Shown piece by piece: positions 803 to 31,370 of a stretch of 31,370 bases of DNA (position 1 is its first letter; every line of letters begins with the position of its first letter). This stretch comes from a virus. Taxonomy: Duplodnaviria; Caudoviricetes. The stretch lies in the IMG/VR virus record IMGVR_UViG_3300033076_000282, positions 1-31,370 of that record; one strand, 5' to 3'. The notes below the pieces were generated by a model, which saw only the letters and a list, made by a program, of their open reading frames with translations, was not told the origin of the DNA and did not search any database. Both the position numbers and the translations under genes were made by a program.

Positions 803-831
803 TTGCGTTAATGGTTTAACGGTGTTATACT
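803..831 (+). promoter_or_regulatory. sigma70-type promoter with extended -10
   Basis: TTGCGT (803-808), 17-nt spacer, TATACT (826-831), with TG at 823-824. Lies in an AT-rich intergenic gap upstream of RBS AGGAGA (849-854) and ATG 862. Confidence 0.7.
806..821. promoter_or_regulatory. Inverted repeat, operator-like site overlapping the -35/spacer
   Basis: CGTTAA-TGGT-TTAACG: perfect 6-bp arms with a 4-nt spacer. Confidence 0.5.
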
Positions 832-861
832 CTTTACATCATCGCAATAGGAGATCAAACG

Positions 862-2643: not shown

Positions 2644-5493
2644 ATGAACACCCAAGAGTTTCTTGACCGCGTCCTACCGGACAGCGGGCTCCGAGTAGTC
2701 GTCTCGATCACACCGAAGGGTGCGCGACAGAAGTTCTACCCGGACAATGCGGCAGCCGCTGCCGCTTTGATCGCCGCAGACAGCCAAGGCACTGATGTCT
2801 ACCACGGCTGCGCGACGTACACCGACAACAGTTCGAGGAAAGCAGACAATGCGCTTGCCGCGAAAGCCCTGTGGGTTGACCTCGACGTCGGACCATCCAA
2901 GCCCTACGCGTCTCAGGCGGATGCTGGTCGTGCTGCTGTACTGTTCGGCAAGACCGTTGGATTACCCCCACCACTTATCGTTAATTCCGGGCGGGGGCTT
3001 CATGTCTATTGGCTTCTGGAAACGGAAGTTTGCGCGGCTGATTGGCAGCGTGCTGCTGCCGCTCTCAAACTGGCTGCGAAGCACGCCGGGCTGGCCGCCG
3101 ACCCGTCACGAACTGCGGACGTTGCTAGTATCCTCCGCACCCCCGGAACCACAAACCATAAAGACCCCGATCGTCCGCTTGCCGTGGTGGCTGTCCGTGA
3201 TGGCAAACCAGCTCCCTACGACTTCATCCTCGGACGCCTCGAACAATACCTTGCCGACAACGACGTCGATGTCCTCGGTGCAGCGCCGAGCCACGTCACG
3301 GTAGACAACTCTGATCTTGAGGTGAAGTACGATGGCCCACCTCCAAGCGTGGTCCCTATCGTCGAGGGCTGTGCAATCATCCGCGAGTTCCGAGATAGCC
3401 AAGGCCAGATTGAGGAACCGCTGTGGCGTGCCTGCATGGGCGTGGTCCGGCATTGTGAGAACGGTGCCGAGCTGTGTCACGAGTGGTCGTCCGGTCATCC
3501 GCAGTACACCGCCGAAGAAACAGACGCCAAGCTGGCGGGGCTTGAGGGTACTGGCCCAACCACTTGTGAGGTACTTGGACATCACAGACCTGATGCGTGC
3601 GCGACGTGCCCGTTCTTCGGCAAGTGCCGATCTCCGATCTCGATTGCTTACAAGGCAATCCCTGTTGCAACGGTCGAGGACCCGGACAACCCCGAGGAAG
3701 AGGTAGGCACGCCCGATCTACCCGACGGCTTCGCGTGGACCAGCAAGGGACTGTACGGCCGCACGAAGGACAAGGATGGCGAGGTGATCGACGTGCGGCT
3801 GTCGTCGCTGCTGTTCTACCCGACGGGCTGGACGAAGGACGTTGAGGGCAAGCACGCCCTGATGGTGAACGTACACACTAGACCCGGACAGGTAGACAAG
3901 TTTACACTTGCGACCGGGCTCGTTGCCGAAGGCGGCTCCAAGCTGAACGCCCGCCTCGGTGAGCACATGATCATGATAGAGCGGAACCGCGGACCGATGG
4001 TACAGCATTATCTCCAAGAGTGGGCTGACGTACTGCGCCTGCGCAGCGCGCCCATCGCAACCTACAACCGCTTCGGTTGGTACGGTAAGGACTTCCTGAT
4101 TGGCGACGACATGTACTACGCCAACGGCACGCACCAGAAGGTCCTGCTGTCCGGCAGCGCGCAAGAGCAGCTGCACAGCTACACGCCGAAGGGCGACCTG
4201 CAAACGTGGGTCGAAACCGTCGAGCGAGCCTACAACCACCCCACCCTTGAACCGTTGCAGTTCGCGCTGCTCACTGGTCTGGCGTCTCCCCTGCTCAACA
4301 TGTTCGACGAGTTCGGTGGTGTGCTGGTTTACATGCACACGCAGGAAACAGGCGAGGGCAAGACCACCATCAGCCGCGCGGCGCTGTCCTGCTACAACGC
4401 ATGGAAAGATACTCAGATGTCTCAGGGCCAGTTCACGCTGAACGCCCTGTACGCCACGTTCGGTGTCGCCAATGCGATGCCGCTGGTGCTGGACGAGATG
4501 ACAGCGATCGAACCGGCACAGGCCGTGGACATGGTCCACTTGATTTCATCCGGCACGCCGAAGCGCCGGTGCGAGAAGTCAGGCGACCTGCGTCGCAACG
4601 ATCACCGGTGGTCCCTGCTGGCGATTGCCTCGGGCAACAACCTCTTCACCGAGAAGATCATGCAGAACCGTTCGCAGGCTGCGGCCGAAGCGGCGCGCGT
4701 GTTCGAGTACTCCATCCAAGACCTGAACACACCGATCCCCCGAGACGAGGCGGCACGCCTGTTTCCCAAGTTCGGGCAGAACTACGGATGGGCCGGGCGC
4801 GAGTTCATCAAATACGTGGTGCGTAACTATGACGCAGTCAAAGAGGCCCTGCTCAAGACGCAGGCAGCGGTCGGTCCGCTGTTCGGCATCCGACGCTCGG
4901 AGCGGTACTGGGGTGCATTGGTTGCGTGTGTACTGACAACCCACAAGATCGCTCAGAAGCTCGGACTCGTACAGTTTCCGCGGGCCGGGCTGGTGTCGTT
5001 CATTCAGATGGCGCTGGAGCAGAACCGCAGCGGCATGGCGCTGGCCAAGCCGGAAGCGGCAGACCAGATCGGGCGGCTCATTGCCGACTTGTGGGGCGGG
5101 GTGTTCGTCACCCACGGCAAGGGCGACGCCTACGCTCGCTGGGATGCGTTCGTAGCCAAGCACGCGAGCGGCAAGGTGACAGGCCGGTACATCATGCGGC
5201 GTCCGGGGCAGGCAGGCATCAACGACAAGCCCGTCATCTACCTAACGATGGCTGCCGTGAACGACTGGTGCGCGTCGAAGAACGTGTCAGTGCGGGATTT
5301 GATGCGCGAAGCCGCCGCCAAGGGTCTGATCCTGCCGCAGCCAAAGCAGGTCTATCTCGGGGAGGGCTCGGTCCAATACAGCGGCGTTGCATCCCACAGA
5401 TGTCTTGTCATCCGGGAAGATGCTCTGCCGCTAACGATGGCCCCCGGAACCCCGCAGCTGACCGTTGTTCAGGGTGGAGTTGCAACCCCATGA
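2644..5493 (+). CDS. Primase-helicase: AEP/RepB-like primase, PriCT-2-like region, Cys cluster, DUF927 and SF3-like ATPase
   Basis: 949 aa. AEP motifs LWVDLD, NSGRGLHVYW and ILRTPGTTNHK; EPLWRACMG...WSSGHPQY (PriCT-like); C..CATCPFFGKC cluster; FGW (DUF927-like); Walker A-like ETGEGKTT and Walker B-like PLVLDEMT. Confidence 0.85.
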   Translation: MNTQEFLDRVLPDSGLRVVVSITPKGARQKFYPDNAAAAAALIAADSQGTDVYHGCATYTDNSSRKADNALAAKALWVDLDVGPSKPYASQADAGRAAVLFGKTVGLPPPLIVNSGRGLHVYWLLETEVCAADWQRAAAALKLAAKHAGLAADPSRTADVASILRTPGTTNHKDPDRPLAVVAVRDGKPAPYDFILGRLEQYLADNDVDVLGAAPSHVTVDNSDLEVKYDGPPPSVVPIVEGCAIIREFRDSQGQIEEPLWRACMGVVRHCENGAELCHEWSSGHPQYTAEETDAKLAGLEGTGPTTCEVLGHHRPDACATCPFFGKCRSPISIAYKAIPVATVEDPDNPEEEVGTPDLPDGFAWTSKGLYGRTKDKDGEVIDVRLSSLLFYPTGWTKDVEGKHALMVNVHTRPGQVDKFTLATGLVAEGGSKLNARLGEHMIMIERNRGPMVQHYLQEWADVLRLRSAPIATYNRFGWYGKDFLIGDDMYYANGTHQKVLLSGSAQEQLHSYTPKGDLQTWVETVERAYNHPTLEPLQFALLTGLASPLLNMFDEFGGVLVYMHTQETGEGKTTISRAALSCYNAWKDTQMSQGQFTLNALYATFGVANAMPLVLDEMTAIEPAQAVDMVHLISSGTPKRRCEKSGDLRRNDHRWSLLAIASGNNLFTEKIMQNRSQAAAEAARVFEYSIQDLNTPIPRDEAARLFPKFGQNYGWAGREFIKYVVRNYDAVKEALLKTQAAVGPLFGIRRSERYWGALVACVLTTHKIAQKLGLVQFPRAGLVSFIQMALEQNRSGMALAKPEAADQIGRLIADLWGGVFVTHGKGDAYARWDAFVAKHASGKVTGRYIMRRPGQAGINDKPVIYLTMAAVNDWCASKNVSVRDLMREAAAKGLILPQPKQVYLGEGSVQYSGVASHRCLVIREDALPLTMAPGTPQLTVVQGGVATP

Positions 5494-5960
5494 AGACACA
5501 CGGCCGCCGCCCCGCCGGAAAGCGGAACCCGACATACAGCTCGTGGCGCGCAATGCGCGATCGGTGCCTGTGCCCCACCAACAAAGACTACCCCCGCTAC
5601 GGCGGGGCTGGCGTGACCGTAGACGCCCGTTGGGATGACTTCGCGGTCTTCCTAGCTGACATGGGCGAACGCCCGCCAGGGACGACGCTAGACCGTCTGG
5701 ACGGCACATTAGGGTACACCCCGCTGAACTGTCGTTGGGCAACGCCTGCCCAACAATCCGCCAACCGTCGCCACCTTGTCTGGTTGACCCACAACGGCGT
5801 CACGCTATGCTTGCGGGATTGGGCGCGCACCACCGGCATCTCGATGCACAAGTTGTACTACCGGCACAAACGCGGACTGCCCGTGCATGAGATTCTCAAG
5901 GAGATCGCGCGATGTGGGAAGTCCTCTTCGTCCTCTGCACCATCCACGGGTCTTGCATAG
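5490..5960 (+). CDS. HNH-family homing-type endonuclease with C-terminal DNA-binding segment
   Basis: Probable start is ATG 5490 (ATGA overlap with the primase stop), not 4926. Motifs TYSSWRAMRDRC...YPRYGGAGVTV...W..F..FLADMGERP...TLDRLD...GYTPLNCRWAT...Q..NRR are characteristic of this phage HNH family. Confidence 0.85.
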   Translation: MKTHGRRPAGKRNPTYSSWRAMRDRCLCPTNKDYPRYGGAGVTVDARWDDFAVFLADMGERPPGTTLDRLDGTLGYTPLNCRWATPAQQSANRRHLVWLTHNGVTLCLRDWARTTGISMHKLYYRHKRGLPVHEILKEIARCGKSSSSSAPSTGLA

Positions 5961-6109
5961 AGAGGCGGATACCAGTTGCACAGGATCAACCAATTAACAT
6001 ATACCAGTGTACGGTAATCGCGCAGGCTGAGATCGCCCTGGTCTGCGAACGATACCCTGGCTACGGCCTCAAGCGATGGTCCTGTGGGCGACCTTCAAAG
6101 GATACGTGA
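5912..6109 (+). CDS. Small Cys-rich protein, alphaproteobacterial-like, probably exported
   Basis: 65 aa, RBS AAGGAG at 5898-5903. Hydrophobic N-terminus (MWEVLFVLC) and pattern C-x5-C...C..AQ..IA...YPGY...RWSC. Confidence 0.6.
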   Translation: MWEVLFVLCTIHGSCIERRIPVAQDQPINIYQCTVIAQAEIALVCERYPGYGLKRWSCGRPSKDT

Positions 6110-6393
6110 TGAAGCCGATCGACTGGACGGTCCTGTTCTTTGTATGGCTGGTAATCTTGGCGCTACTGCTCTCGATTCTCCAACCGTCAGAGGCGCAGGC
6201 GGTTAGCTCGCGGACCCGTGCAGCATGCACGGGGAGCTACCTGAACTACTGCTCGCATACCACTCCCGGCACGCCTCAGTGTCGCGCATGTTTCAGGTTC
6301 AACTGGAAGAAGCTCGATGCCCAGTGCCAAGCAGCCATCCGCACCGACCCCAGCTACAAGCATAACTTCTCGGGTCGTCGTAAAACTTCCTAA
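6109..6393 (+). CDS. Secreted cysteine-rich-repeat protein (Cys-rich GLG1/FGFR-repeat-like)
   Basis: Start ATG 6109 (TGATG overlap; GTG 6106 also possible), RBS AAGGA. Signal peptide ending AQA, then AC..SY..YC....PG....RAC...N..KL...C..AI. Confidence 0.65.
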   Translation: MKPIDWTVLFFVWLVILALLLSILQPSEAQAVSSRTRAACTGSYLNYCSHTTPGTPQCRACFRFNWKKLDAQCQAAIRTDPSYKHNFSGRRKTS

Positions 6394-6628
6394 CGGGGAA
6401 ATCCTGAGCGTCGCTGACCTGCCGGACCCGCACGTCTGGTGGACGGTACGCAGGAAGTGGATTGTGGCGCAGGCCGTCTTGCACGGCCTGCTCCCATACG
6501 ACGAGGCGCTGCGGCGCTACTGGATGCACCCCGAGGAACTTGAGGACTGGATCGCCAAGGTCCGGTTCGGCGGCAAGCGTCGCTTAAAAGCTACTGTTCG
6601 AGAGCCTGCTCCACGAAGCGGCGGTTAG
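6317..6628 (+). CDS. sciP: SciP (small CtrA inhibitory protein)/DUF1153 homologue
   Basis: VKLPNGEILSVADLP...WTVRRKWIVAQAVLHGLLPYDEALRRY.MHPEELEDW...V..GG...LKAT is collinear with the DUF1153/SciP consensus as I recall it (V.lPdG..lt.ADLPp..t.RWv..RKa.VV.AV.gGLl...EA..RY.Ls.EEf..W...v..hG...Lr.T). Start codon uncertain; 6317 is the only in-frame ATG before the domain. Confidence 0.82.
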   Translation: MPSAKQPSAPTPATSITSRVVVKLPNGEILSVADLPDPHVWWTVRRKWIVAQAVLHGLLPYDEALRRYWMHPEELEDWIAKVRFGGKRRLKATVREPAPRSGG

Positions 6629-9600
6629 AGTCCCGCACCTGCACCCCACCAATGGTGTTCTTCTCGCGCTTCTTCTGCTCGGCGCGAGCGCGCAGCAGCT
6701 CCGACCGGCTGGTCTTCTTGAAGCCGTACTGGTCCTTGGTGGTCTGCAGCGCCTCCCACTGTGCCTCGATCTCCCGCATAGTACCGGTGTCACGAGACTC
6801 CTGCGCCTGCGCGTAGGCCCGCTTGAGCGACGCTGTGCGCTGCTTGAAGTGTTCCTCGTACACGACCTTCTGTGCGTTGATCCGCTGTGCGTTGAGCTTC
6901 ACCGTGGGCGCGAAGCCGAGAGCCTGCAGGAATACGTTGACCTCGCCCACTTCCTCGGGGGACAGCAGCATGTCGCCGTTCTTCTTCTCGTAGCCGCGTG
7001 TGGCCAGTTCGTAGGCGCGCACCGCGTTCGTAACACCAGACGGTAGTGCCTCACCCAGCGCCCGCAGATACTCGCCCTGCTGCACAGCCTCAAGCCCACG
7101 CTGTGCCTTGTCGGCCAGACCAGCCGACGGCCCGAGTACCGCGAACGTCGCATCCCGCAAGCCGTCGCGCGAGTCCAGCTCGGAGTAATTCAGGAACGGG
7201 AACGGGTTGTGCAGAGTGCCGAGGCCGAGGCCGTTGGCCAGCTCAACTCCGACCAGCGTGCCGATGCCGCGCGCCGCGACCCCGCCGCCCACCAGATCAG
7301 TCAGCCACTTCTCACCATCGAGCGGCTCGTCATCGTCCTTGAAGATCGCGGAACCGATGACACCGAACAGCTGCGCAGCCGGAAGACCGACGGCACCTGT
7401 GACCAGAGCCAGCTGCCCCGTCATGTATGCAAGAGCGCGACGTGCCTCGGGCGAAGTCTTGGAATCCTTGATCATGCCGAGCCACAGCGCCAGCTGGCCC
7501 AGCTGGTACTTGCGGAACTGAGTCACGACCTTCGGCAGCATGTTAAAGTAGCGCGGCTGGTTCCGGTTCGAGTAGTCGAACTGCGTGCGTGCCAGCACGT
7601 CCTCCATCGCCTCCACCTTCCCGCCCGACAGACGGTAGGCAGCCAGCGCCGACGAGACGCGGTTAATGTATTCAACCTGGCCCGACAGCGTGCGGAAGAC
7701 GTGGGTCGCCTCCGACATGAACCGGGCCGGACCATCGCTGGCTTCCCAGTATCCTTGGTCGTACTGCTGCCCAAGTTCGAGCAGACCCGTGAACTGCATC
7801 TTCTGCAGCGCCTCGATCTCGTCACGGCTCACACCCTTGAGCTTTGACAGATCGACCTTGCCCTTCCAGAACTCCGCAGACTTCATCTGCGGACCGATGG
7901 CTTTGTACGCATCATAGAGCGCACCGTAGGCCCGGCCGCCGTGCTTGCCCGCAAGGTACGGAGCCGACACCATCCACGGCTGCAACGAGTTCATGAGGTA
8001 ATACCGAGGCGACATCGCAAGATGGTACAGCGACGAGGCTGCCATCAGCTTGTCCTGGATCGGCGTCTCTTCGGCCATCATCTGCTGGTTGTGCCGCATA
8101 AGAACTTCACGCAGCACCCGCTTGCGCTCCTGATAGCCTTCGTCCCGGACGCTGGACTCCTTGTTGATCATGGTTTGCATGACCTGACCAATCTCGTAGC
8201 GATCCGTAATCTGTGCGAGGATGTGTGCGTCGGCACGCCCCTTCTGCGCAAACGACCGGAGCATGTCATCGTCGGCACCGTCGATGCCTTCACGATACTG
8301 GTCGTGTTGCCGAGCCGAAGTCTCTGCGAGCGTGCGGATGTAGAGGTCCTTCACCAAGTTCTCGATGTCGCGAGTCGTCTTGCGCCCGAGCTTGTCGGTC
8401 TCACCCAACTCCTTCACCATCAAATCCTTGAACCGCTGCATCTGCATGATCGGAGACTCTCCGATCTGCTCGAACGTCTCGCTGCGCAGCGCCGAGTACA
8501 GCTGCCCACCCTTGAACGCCGGGTTCTTCTGCAGCTTCTCCAGCAGTACAACGTCGGCATCGGCCTGCGAGTCACGGAAGAACACCGCGTAGTGGTTCGG
8601 GTCCACACGCAGGTTGCCCAGCTCGGCGCGTTCGGCCTTCGAGGCGTCGCCAGACTTGACCTTGTTTTCCAGCTCCACGAACCGCGCCGACTTGGCGACA
8701 GCAGCATACTTGCCGAACCGTGACAGCGGCGCGTAGGGTCCGTCGAGCTTGGGCACCATCTTGTTGAACAGCTTGAGTTCGCGCTGCTTGCGCTCCTCGA
8801 TCGACTGGCGCTCCTCGGCGGTCAGTGCGTTGGCGAGATCGCCCGCCGTCTCGTTCTCGATGTACTTAGTCACTGCCGTCTGCAGATCGGCGCGGGCCTT
8901 GTCCGAATACTGGAACATCGCATCCGCCACGGCAAACGCATCCGGGAACTCCGCGCGGAACTTATCCGTCAGCTCCTTCGCCTTCGGATCAATCTTGACC
9001 GGCTCCGTCTTCCACGTCGGCTGGTAGCCCCACTTACCTGAAATCGTTGCTGCCTTGATATACTTGTTCAGCGCGTCACGCTTGGGCGTCTTTCCGCGGA
9101 CAGACCCGGCAACGCTGTCGAGGTTCATCGCGTCCACAACCAGCTGGTCGAGGGTCTTTACGTATTCGTTGGTCTTCGCCATCACAGCCTGCTGGATGTC
9201 GAACAGTCGCTTGGCAGACGGCAAGCCCTTACGAACAGCCTCTTCCATGAGGTTACGACCGAGCAGCGTACCGAGCTTGATGTTGCTAAGAGTATCGCTG
9301 GCAACAACAGCGAGGTTGATCAGCGGCTCCGGCACGCCGCGTGCGGAGAGCGTCGAGCGAAGACCCATCGAGCGCGACTTTAGAATCTCAGGTGCGTTTG
9401 CGATCGAGCTGATCGGAGCATCTGCCCGCTGAAACGACGGAGCCGCAGGCTGTGCGGTGTTAGGCGATAACCGGCCAACACCCGTGCGGAACGTGCGAGC
9501 GCCATCGTCCGGCGCTCCCCGCTGAACTTTGGCGTGAGCAGCACGAAGTACTGCACGCACCTCCGAGTCGGTGAACCGTTCGGTCAAACCCATCCGACGT

Positions 9601-30668: not shown

Positions 30669-31370
30669 CTACACCCCGATTCCGTACACCTCTTGACTGT
30701 ACTTGGCGTAGGTATCGTAGGCCCGTGGGAGCTTCTCGGCAATGTACGGGTGCCAGGGTTTGTGGCTGCCTGCGAAGAAGCACACCCGCGCGTTGTCCGG
30801 CACGCTGCCCTTGAGAAGCGTGAAGTGGTAGGCCCCGTCTTTCTCGGTCCAGGTGCGCGCCTCTGGCATGCAGTAGCTCATCCACGCCTGATCGCTGCCG
30901 TACATCCGAACCTTTGTCGCCATCTCCCGACGCCGCACCAAGTCCTGCGCGTTGCAGCCAAACGTGTTCCACACCTGCGTCCGCGTACCCAGCGTATGCA
31001 AAAACATAGACCCGTTAAGCGGAGACGCCTTGCCCTGCATGATGCGGAAGTCATGGTCTGTCACCATCGGCGTGAGATCGTCAAAGATCACGCAGTCCAG
31101 ATCGATCGACAGGATGCGATCCGCATTGAAAATCTTCCGAGCCTCGCTCGAGAAAACCTTTAGGCGGCGGTAGCAGTTGGGCCGCTTGCCCTGCACCGTG
31201 ACCTCTGGGTCATTCCACAGCTTAATCGTCTCAGCCTGCACGCCGGTCGGATCGTCCGTCACGCACACGAAACGGTGTGGGATTTGGAGGTTCCTCTCGA
31301 CCATCAGTTTCAGTACGTTGACGTGGTGGGCCTTGTACATCTCCCCACGCCAGCCGACCCACTTCCAGCA
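30669..31370 (-). CDS. GT-A fold glycosyltransferase; 5' end lies outside the window
   Basis: Frame is open to the window edge (CWKWVGWRGEMYKAHHVNVL...). HRFVCVTDD, RRLKVF, DxD motif SIDLDCVI, LNGSMF, GSDQAWM and FFAGSHKPW. Confidence 0.8.
   Translation of the reverse strand, partial: CWKWVGWRGEMYKAHHVNVLKLMVERNLQIPHRFVCVTDDPTGVQAETIKLWNDPEVTVQGKRPNCYRRLKVFSSEARKIFNADRILSIDLDCVIFDDLTPMVTDHDFRIMQGKASPLNGSMFLHTLGTRTQVWNTFGCNAQDLVRRREMATKVRMYGSDQAWMSYCMPEARTWTEKDGAYHFTLLKGSVPDNARVCFFAGSHKPWHPYIAEKLPRAYDTYAKYSQEVYGIGV

What the first reader, a model, noticed from the sequence alone, without database searches (positions are those of the whole stretch)
6317..6628. Phage-encoded SciP homologue: candidate hijack of the CtrA cell-cycle circuit
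Seen: about 75 aa collinear with SciP/DUF1153 (ADLP, W..RRK..V..AV..GLL...EA..RY....EE...W, L..T). Known: in Caulobacter, SciP binds CtrA and blocks activation of CtrA-dependent flagellar and chemotaxis genes; CtrA also controls pili, replication initiation and gene transfer agents in alphaproteobacteria. The phage copy diverges at normally conserved positions (RW becomes WW, KA becomes KW) and lacks the usual IQ.YR end, which could alter its activity or turnover. Inference: the phage dampens or rewires the CtrA regulon, to hold the host in a favourable state or remove surface receptors, or it acts as a dominant-negative mimic. I know of reports of phage CtrA sites and homologues but cannot recall a characterised phage SciP; novelty needs a literature check.
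Basis: partly seen in the sequence, partly recalled or inferred. Interest (0 to 1): 0.85.

Follow-up and report, generated by a model that had tools for sequence, protein, structure and literature searches.

The report
Phage-remodelled copy of regulator SciP
A short-tailed phage carries a reshaped copy of SciP, the small bacterial protein that holds down the master regulator CtrA; the copy keeps the predicted fold but has swapped several residues that host SciP proteins conserve, and it likely lets the phage damp CtrA-driven genes such as motility in a probably Paracoccus-like host, which is untested.

Summary
ORF 6317-6628 matches Pfam DUF1153 (E 1.3e-18) and its model superposes on a solved Rhodobacter DUF1153 structure (Z 9.2), but it scores under NCBIfam's SciP cut-off (67 vs 100 bits). 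It is the last gene of the replication arm of a PBC5-like podovirus, overlapping an upstream Cys-rich gene and a convergent giant virion gene. A second contig has the same layout; a close relative has an empty site. The core is under purifying selection; both tails are by-products of the overlaps. It belongs to a small, distinct clade that shares R35 loss, A42W, V45A and mostly T/S65H, and is closest to Paracoccus-like SciP. Four other phage-borne copies found here stay near canonical. No CtrA boxes lie in the half genome held; the host is unproven, expression not shown, CtrA binding untested. Best reading (0.45): a host-takeover protein acting on CtrA by contact, affecting motility-type genes rather than the cell cycle. 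Eight literature searches found no phage SciP. This scan noted SciP genes before in large sphingomonad phages; I did not compare those sequences.

The parts
6317..6628 (+). SciP-like ORF, 103 aa; ATG 6317 is the only ATG/GTG/TTG in frame before the domain
   Evidence: next in-frame GTG is codon 50 (read)
6368..6598 (+). DUF1153 core: beta-hairpin (21-23, 29-31) plus three helices (44-55, 61-68, 72-89) in the predicted model
6317..6393 (+). 77-nt overlap with the upstream Cys-rich gene; the low-confidence Pro/Ser/Thr-rich residues 1-19 evolve in the other gene's frame
   Evidence: pS/pN 0.68/0.24 in the Cys frame, 0.37/0.32 in the SciP frame
6591..6628 (+). 38-nt convergent overlap with the 3' end of the giant virion gene; encodes residues 92-103 and replaces the QxYR end
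   Evidence: 42-nt overlap in L004; alternative allele from 6595 in runs X3 and X4
6109..6393 (+). 94-aa gene with a hydrophobic N-terminus (signal peptide inferred by eye) and four conserved Cys; Cys-rich-repeat-like (lead only)
   Evidence: present in L004 and L011
6591..13211 (-). 2206-aa giant virion protein (PHROG DarB-like match), last gene of the structural arm
5490..5960 (+). HNH endonuclease, variable; absent at this site in G003, alternative allele in runs X3, X4, X5, X7
2644..5493 (+). DUF927 primase/helicase of the replication arm that ends in the SciP-like gene
803..832 (+). candidate sigma70-type promoter with a TTAA half-site just after the -35 element, conserved in the SciP-less relative; might drive the arm ending in the SciP-like gene (inferred, spotted by eye, not listed by the promoter scan)

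Best explanation
This is an intact phage gene for a remodelled SciP, likely captured from a Paracoccus-like Rhodobacterales bacterium, that is predicted to be made with the replication genes and would likely damp CtrA-activated transcription by contacting CtrA, without the DNA anchoring and host timing of the original. Shown: family match, synteny in a second contig, empty site in a close relative, excess of synonymous change, clade-wide substitutions. Predicted: the SciP fold. Inferred: donor and host; co-expression and translational coupling to the upstream gene; that R35 (N-terminal arm) and T/S65 (start of helix 3) are DNA contacts whose loss weakens DNA binding; that the retained W36, R40, K41, E68, W72 and the new W48 and M-H-P face keep a protein contact; escape from host timing because no CtrA box precedes the gene. 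The expected effect is lower flagellar, chemotaxis and possibly gene-transfer-agent expression during infection, not cell-cycle arrest.
For: DUF1153 67.3 bits; model vs 2jrt Z 9.2, rmsd 2.2 A, 70 aligned, next hit Z 4.3. Same three-gene layout in L004. G003 has collinear orthologues of 18 of the 20 window genes between 13 and 22343 but no DUF1153, and its two flanking stop codons abut. Core pN 0.33 < pS 0.52 over 57 codons, 1.5% of bootstraps reverse it. Segment 6103-6591 has 0 differences in X3 and X4 while both flanks swap alleles. The window keeps 13 of 17 positions invariant in 56 host-type SciPs. The clade profile scores all 12 Rhodobacterales-type proteins (48.3-65.7 bits) above all 44 others (32.4-46.9). 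Its top six genomic hits lie in mnmA-sciP-ctrA loci and share SVADLP-like motifs and the short loop of named Paracoccus. SciP binds CtrA and its overexpression blocks motility (PMC4083442 passages). Phages already exploit CtrA (PMC9437464 passages).
Against: Below the SciP equivalog cut-off (67.4 vs 100; clade 38-67). R35 is lost in 8 of 8 clade rows that cover it, T/S65 is H in 8 of 9, R40 is D in 5 of 9, G80 is kept in 1 of 9; T65A is a hypomorphic allele in Caulobacter (PMC4083442). The four other phage copies keep 14-17 of 17 invariant positions, so phages that plausibly use canonical SciP do not need these changes. No TTAA-N7-TTAA site in G000 or G003, against 12 in G004. The tree joins the clade to Rhodobacterales with only 47/93 support, and AU tests do not reject grouping with Hyphomicrobiales-type (p 0.123) or sphingomonad (p 0.096) proteins. 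No host link: related prophage proteins are only 33-36% identical in both orders searched. Selection rests on one sequence pair and is weaker than in the Cys-rich gene.
Confidence: 0.45

Rival explanations
1. The SciP fold has been repurposed. The protein binds a different partner or DNA site (a phage promoter, RNA polymerase or another host protein) and no longer touches CtrA.
For: Long stem branch (1.95 changes per column, support 100/100). Clade members keep only 7-13 of the invariant positions yet share new near-fixed residues W48, A51, M70-H71-P72. The basic patch at 33-49 drops from mean +4.6 to +2.6. No CtrA boxes in the DNA held.
Against: The window itself keeps 13 of 17 invariant positions, including R40, K41, G80, L84 and T87. 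No other function is known for DUF1153 in the papers read. DUF1153 genes occur in several other phages, one rich in CtrA boxes, which ties phage SciP to CtrA in general.
Confidence: 0.27
2. It is a dominant-negative decoy. It occupies CtrA but cannot repress, displaces host SciP and so keeps CtrA-activated genes on.
For: Loses residues tied to function (T65: PMC4083442; R35 recalled from Gora 2010 and Tan 2010, which could not be read) while keeping the core. The conserved promoter at 803-832 has a TTAA half-site near -35, the position of activating half-sites in PMC4287350 (passage), so the phage might profit from active CtrA.
Against: The same half-site is present in the SciP-less relative. 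One TTAA is weak evidence (27 occur in the window against 21.7 expected). No full boxes.
Confidence: 0.18
3. It is a captured host gene drifting under relaxed selection, with little or no function.
For: Absent from a close relative. Rare: 3 hits by direct search and about ten clade proteins by profile. Weak ribosome-binding site. dN/dS about 0.47.
Against: The frame is open in all clade members despite 47-73% identity to the window. The same new residues are fixed across them. pN < pS. The segment is unchanged where flanks recombine.
Confidence: 0.1

Closest known systems
SciP of Alphaproteobacteria (Pfam DUF1153 PF06627; NCBIfam NF051866; PDB 2jrt, 2oa4)
   Same: Sequence family, predicted hairpin plus three-helix fold, 13 of 17 invariant residues; closest to Paracoccus-like proteins.
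   Different: Phage-borne; not in an mnmA-sciP(-ctrA) locus; no CtrA box upstream; R35W, V37T, A42W, V45A, T/S65H; no QxYR end; both termini dual-coded; 67 bits against a cut-off of 100.
CtrA-controlled Alphaproteobacteria phages (Delta, phiCbK, Cp1R7A-A1; PMC9437464, passages read)
   Same: Phage wired to the host CtrA system.
   Different: Those carry clusters of CtrA-binding sites and are regulated by CtrA. This phage has no full box in the 53% held and encodes a putative regulator of CtrA. The paper found no biased SciP sites and the passages read report no phage SciP gene.
Other phage-borne DUF1153 genes found here (G004 two copies, G005 provirus, G006) and noted earlier by this scan in large sphingomonad phages
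   Same: SciP-family gene among phage genes.
   Different: The four copies keep R35, R40, A42, T/S65, G80 and T87 and fall elsewhere in the best tree, though one common origin is not rejected (p-AU 0.098). One G004 copy has a full CtrA box about 55-70 nt upstream. The earlier-noted sequences were not compared.
PBC5 / Atu_ph08 / Itty13 / Burkholderia DC1-like podoviruses; Rhizobium phages RHph_TM27A group
   Same: Internal virion protein about 33% identical; replication genes 26-45% identical; similar 55-63 kb size class.
   Different: No tblastn match to either SciP query in 50,697 cultured-phage records.

Membership tests
Pfam DUF1153 (PF06627) | Score above the gathering threshold | tested here: met
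   67.3 bits vs 23.5, profile 5-82 of 87
SciP (NCBIfam NF051866 equivalog) | Score above the curated cut-off | tested here: not met
   67.4 vs 100; host-type controls 108-141
SciP | DUF1153 fold (hairpin plus helix-turn-helix) | tested here: met
   Predicted model (pLDDT 69, core blocks 72-85) vs 2jrt: Z 9.2, rmsd 2.2, 70 aligned; Foldseek E 2.3e-4
SciP | Invariant R35 of the RW motif | tested here: not met
   R in 56 of 56 host-type; W here; R in 0 of 8 clade rows
SciP | Invariant R40-K41, W36, E68, W72, G80, L84, T87 | tested here: met
   All kept in the window; R40 is D in 5 of 9 clade rows
SciP | T/S at position 65 (T65A hypomorphic in Caulobacter) | tested here: not met
   H71 here, H in 8 of 9 clade rows; allele per PMC4083442
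SciP | C-terminal QxY/F-R | tested here: not met
   R93 in 56 of 56 host-type; replaced by the antisense of the giant gene
SciP | Binds CtrA and inhibits CtrA-activated promoters | not testable with these tools
SciP | Expressed from a CtrA-activated promoter and turned over by Lon | tested here: inconclusive
   No TTAA-N7-TTAA with up to 1 mismatch in the window; promoter and turnover not testable; feature from 10.1101/739516
CtrA-regulated phages (PMC9437464) | Cluster of CtrA boxes in an intergenic or terminal region | tested here: inconclusive
   0 sites in G000 and G003, but each is only 52-53% complete; 12 in G004 as positive control

The most novel reading that the evidence does not exclude
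A new class of phage host-takeover protein: a SciP re-engineered by podoviruses into a DNA-independent, untimed CtrA effector with a new binding face (W48, M-H-P). It would be one of several separate phage captures of SciP, making the CtrA-SciP switch a recurrent phage target attacked in protein form and not only read through binding sites.
Probability: 0.4. Interest if true: 0.82.

Novelty: new variant of a known kind. Interest (0 to 1): 0.62.

Why it matters
Phages are known to read CtrA through binding sites; none of the papers searched describes a phage that encodes the CtrA inhibitor. If active, this small protein is a directly testable phage handle on the alphaproteobacterial master regulator. 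The clade also works as a natural mutagenesis of SciP: it keeps the core but drops R35, T/S65 and the C-terminus. That bears on the open dispute over whether SciP acts through CtrA alone or by binding DNA itself (both views are set out in PMC4083442 and PMC4287350). A sister phage with an empty site gives a ready comparison.

Tried and rejected
Cultured phages: no tblastn match for the window core or a host-type SciP in 50,697 records; no PHROG; no BFVD match under E 0.001. Viral-contig scans with the window protein gave two 27-residue hits, L001 and L002, rejected because neither record has DUF1153. The clade alignment found nothing further in viral contigs; primase and Cys-rich scans found only G003. 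Longer fused forms: none among 8000 candidates scored, weak evidence. Host: the genome scan gave only a 31% primase hit in a Polynucleobacter MAG; prophage searches hit 6 of 401 Rhodobacterales-side and 5 of 401 Rhizobiales-side genomes at 33-36%; endolysin and Cys-rich searches were uninformative. GANTC depletion (0.70) is no stronger than CCNGG (0.66) or CTAG (0.64). SciP motifs: TTAACCAT absent; GCGAC occurs 4.5 times per kb, so the copy near the promoter means little. RNA runs X18-X20 gave only scattered 120-230 nt contigs and X18 is probably DNA, so expression is neither shown nor excluded. X8 left the core uncovered, which proves nothing. Complex prediction with CtrA was not available, so there is no verdict. 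Frameshift fusion to the Cys-rich gene was considered and rejected: a hydrophobic N-terminus does not suit a cytoplasmic regulator, and P0002-P0004 start directly at the core. AU tests did not reject any alternative grouping, so independent captures are suggested, not shown. Dropped rows: L010 (cut by contig end), L005 and L072-L076 (weak or transposase-like), eight near-duplicate host rows. Gora 2010 and Tan 2010 were not held; statements on R35 and on a C-terminal Lon signal are recalled only. Supplements were not opened; those of PMC9437464 might list phage genes that bear on novelty.

Full report
Observation. The ORF at 6317-6628 (+) encodes 103 aa. Residues 18-94 match Pfam DUF1153 at 67.3 bits, E 1.3e-18, and the solved structures 2jrt and 2oa4 at E 4.5e-11 and 1.9e-9. 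An AlphaFold model from an 18-row alignment (mean pLDDT 69; core blocks 72-85; termini about 45-52) superposes on 2jrt at Z 9.2, rmsd 2.2 A over 70 residues, with the next chain at Z 4.3. It scores 67.4 bits on the NCBIfam SciP equivalog, under the cut-off of 100, while three host-type controls score 108-141. It is a DUF1153 protein but not a typical SciP.

The phage. The window is a linear virus record estimated 53% complete. A + strand arm (helicase, Cro-like HTH, DUF927 primase, HNH, two small genes, the SciP-like gene) meets a - strand structural arm (SU10-type adaptors, tail fibres, endolysin, internal virion proteins, a 2206-aa giant protein). The closest cultured phages are PBC5, Atu_ph08, Itty13 and Ralstonia/Burkholderia podoviruses at about 33%, and Rhizobium RHph_TM27A-type phages for replication genes at 26-45%. 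Tail-fibre pieces match 74 records, led by Pseudomonas (25) and Rhodobacter (24) phages, with Rhizobium and Bradyrhizobium phages on top. The host is not established.

Anatomy. The gene is the last of the + arm. Its first 77 nt overlap a 94-aa Cys-rich gene (6109-6393); its last 38 nt overlap the stop end of the convergent giant gene. The ATG is formed by the upstream gene's Asp-Ala codons, is the only common start codon before the domain, and has a weak ribosome-binding site. Metagenome contig L004 has the same three genes, the same ATG and a 42-nt convergent overlap. P0007, P0158 and P0159 begin with an equivalent extension, which implies the same layout (inferred, DNA not seen). P0002-P0004 start directly at the core, so the extension is dispensable. 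Between the window and L004, the extension evolves in the Cys gene's frame (pS/pN 0.68/0.24) and near-neutrally in the SciP frame (0.37/0.32). In runs X3 and X4 an alternative giant-gene end diverges at 6595, so the SciP tail differs within populations. The missing IQ.YR end is therefore tied to the overlap.

Empty site. Record G003 (L011) has collinear orthologues of 18 of the 20 window genes between 13 and 22343; its HNH genes sit elsewhere; the 7 genes tested beyond 22499 lie past its end. It has no DUF1153 match, its Cys-gene stop (8271-8273) abuts the giant-gene stop (8274), and it reads Asp-Pro, so no ATG. The gene is an accessory gain or loss at the junction of the two arms. G003 is 52% complete, so a copy elsewhere in it is not excluded.

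Selection. Over 57 non-overlapping core codons, pN is 0.33 and pS 0.52; 1.5% of 10,000 bootstraps reverse this; dN/dS is about 0.47. This is one pair, and weaker than in the Cys gene. The stretch is held by 20 of 24 listed runs from 15 studies, 7 with half the words or more; I laid 8. In X3 and X4 the segment 6103-6591 is one contig with 0 differences whose depth roughly equals the sum of the alternative flanks, and X5's listed differences all lie outside the ORF. The two listed changes in the overlaps (6363, 6621) are synonymous in the neighbouring gene and non-synonymous in SciP (my reading). RNA runs give no usable evidence.

A distinct clade. Profile and exhaustive searches return about ten close proteins. 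Eight of them form a clade with 100/100 support on a stem of 1.95 changes per column in a 38-row, 94-column tree (26 host-type or plasmid rows, 4 other phage copies). I compared them with 56 host-type SciPs (50 distinct): 50 of the 67 strong matches among 301 genomes plus 6 named or host-flank loci, a set biased to typical members. Seventeen positions are invariant. The window keeps 13 (loses R35, V37, V45, R93); other clade rows keep 7-11. Across 9 rows: R35 in 0 of the 8 that cover it, A42W 9 of 9, V45A 9 of 9, T/S65H 8 of 9, R40D 5 of 9 (not the window), G80 1 of 9. T65A is a hypomorphic allele and overexpressed SciP blocks motility in Caulobacter (PMC4083442, passages). Genomic context was seen only for the window and L004; phage origin of the other members is inferred.

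Donor. The clade profile scores all 12 Rhodobacterales-type proteins above all 44 others. Among 301 genomes of that order, the six best hits examined lie in mnmA-sciP-ctrA loci, carry SVADLP-like motifs and the one-residue-shorter loop, and have CtrA starts like that of named Paracoccus ferrooxidans. The tree agrees weakly (47/93) and does not reject other placements. A Paracoccus-like donor is likely; the present host may differ.

Other phages. A host-type profile found 5 viral loci. One is host flank next to mnmA (L006), one is cut by the contig end, and three are among phage genes: G004 (165 kb, terminal repeats, two copies), G005 (provirus) and G006. These four copies keep 14-17 of 17 invariant positions. 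G004 has 12 exact CtrA boxes against 0 in the control, one just upstream of a SciP copy; G000, G003 and G005 have 0 and G006 has 1 (control 1). Earlier notes of this scan report shortened SciP genes in large sphingomonad phages (unchecked AI notes); no look-alike of this sequence was noted. Phage-borne SciP is thus recurrent, and this clade is the remodelled form.

Mechanism. SciP binds CtrA and impairs RNA polymerase recruitment; whether it also binds DNA is disputed (PMC4083442; PMC4287350; passages). It is timed by a CtrA-activated promoter and Lon (10.1101/739516, passages). I infer that the phage protein is made with the replication genes, has lost likely DNA contacts (R35 arm, T/S65; role of R35 recalled, not read), keeps the core and R40-K41, and damps CtrA-activated genes by contact (0.45). 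In a Rhodobacterales host this would mean motility and chemotaxis (PMC9437464, passage) and, from recall, gene transfer agents, not the cell cycle. Receptor removal is weakly supported: SciP does not prefer the pilA promoter in vivo. Rivals are repurposing (0.27), a decoy that relieves host SciP (0.18) and drift (0.10).

Novelty. Eight searches (listings and abstract starts seen) returned no paper on a phage-encoded SciP. Four papers were read in passages only; the two founding SciP papers were not held; the library lacks most subscription journals; supplements were not opened. No match exists in 50,697 cultured phage records or PHROGs. Verdict: a real, apparently undescribed variant of a known regulator, with function inferred only. 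Interest 0.62.

Noticed in passing
G004 (L008 7986-8252; L071 2995-3297): A complete 165-kb phage with two near-canonical SciP genes and 12 exact CtrA boxes clustered at 64.8-91.1 kb, one just upstream of a SciP copy; a TadG/TadE-like gene (label recalled) lies next to it. A stronger case of CtrA wiring than the window's phage.
   Followed up: partly
window 6109-6393: Small Cys-rich gene with a hydrophobic N-terminus, conserved in three related phage contigs (66% identity); Atlas neighbours are unnamed or 'cysteine rich repeat' proteins of Pseudomonadota. It could be a periplasmic exclusion or host-interaction protein.
   Followed up: partly
window 6595-7302 and 5495-6103: Within single runs, alternative alleles of the giant virion gene's 3' end and of the HNH region flank an invariant Cys-gene plus SciP block.
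   Followed up: partly
window 803-832; L011 2675-2710: Conserved strong-looking promoter with a TTAA just after the -35 element, upstream of the replication arm in both phages.
   Followed up: partly
G005 (L007 8001-8282) and G006 (L009 7980-8252): A provirus and a 69-kb virus record each carry a SciP-family gene among phage-type genes; the G005 copy keeps all 17 invariant residues.
   Followed up: partly
L018 and L020; hits H54-H56: SciP genes on 190-260 kb Novosphingobium, Sphingomonas and Paracoccus plasmids, outside the mnmA locus in the two opened, so SciP also travels on plasmids.
   Followed up: no
P0020, P0023, P0059, P0074, P0119: Proteins of 408-1290 aa with 3-9 repeated matches to the SciP helix-turn-helix part.
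   Followed up: no
window 30669-31340 (-): Phage glycosyltransferase (PHROG 1962) next to the structural genes.
   Followed up: no
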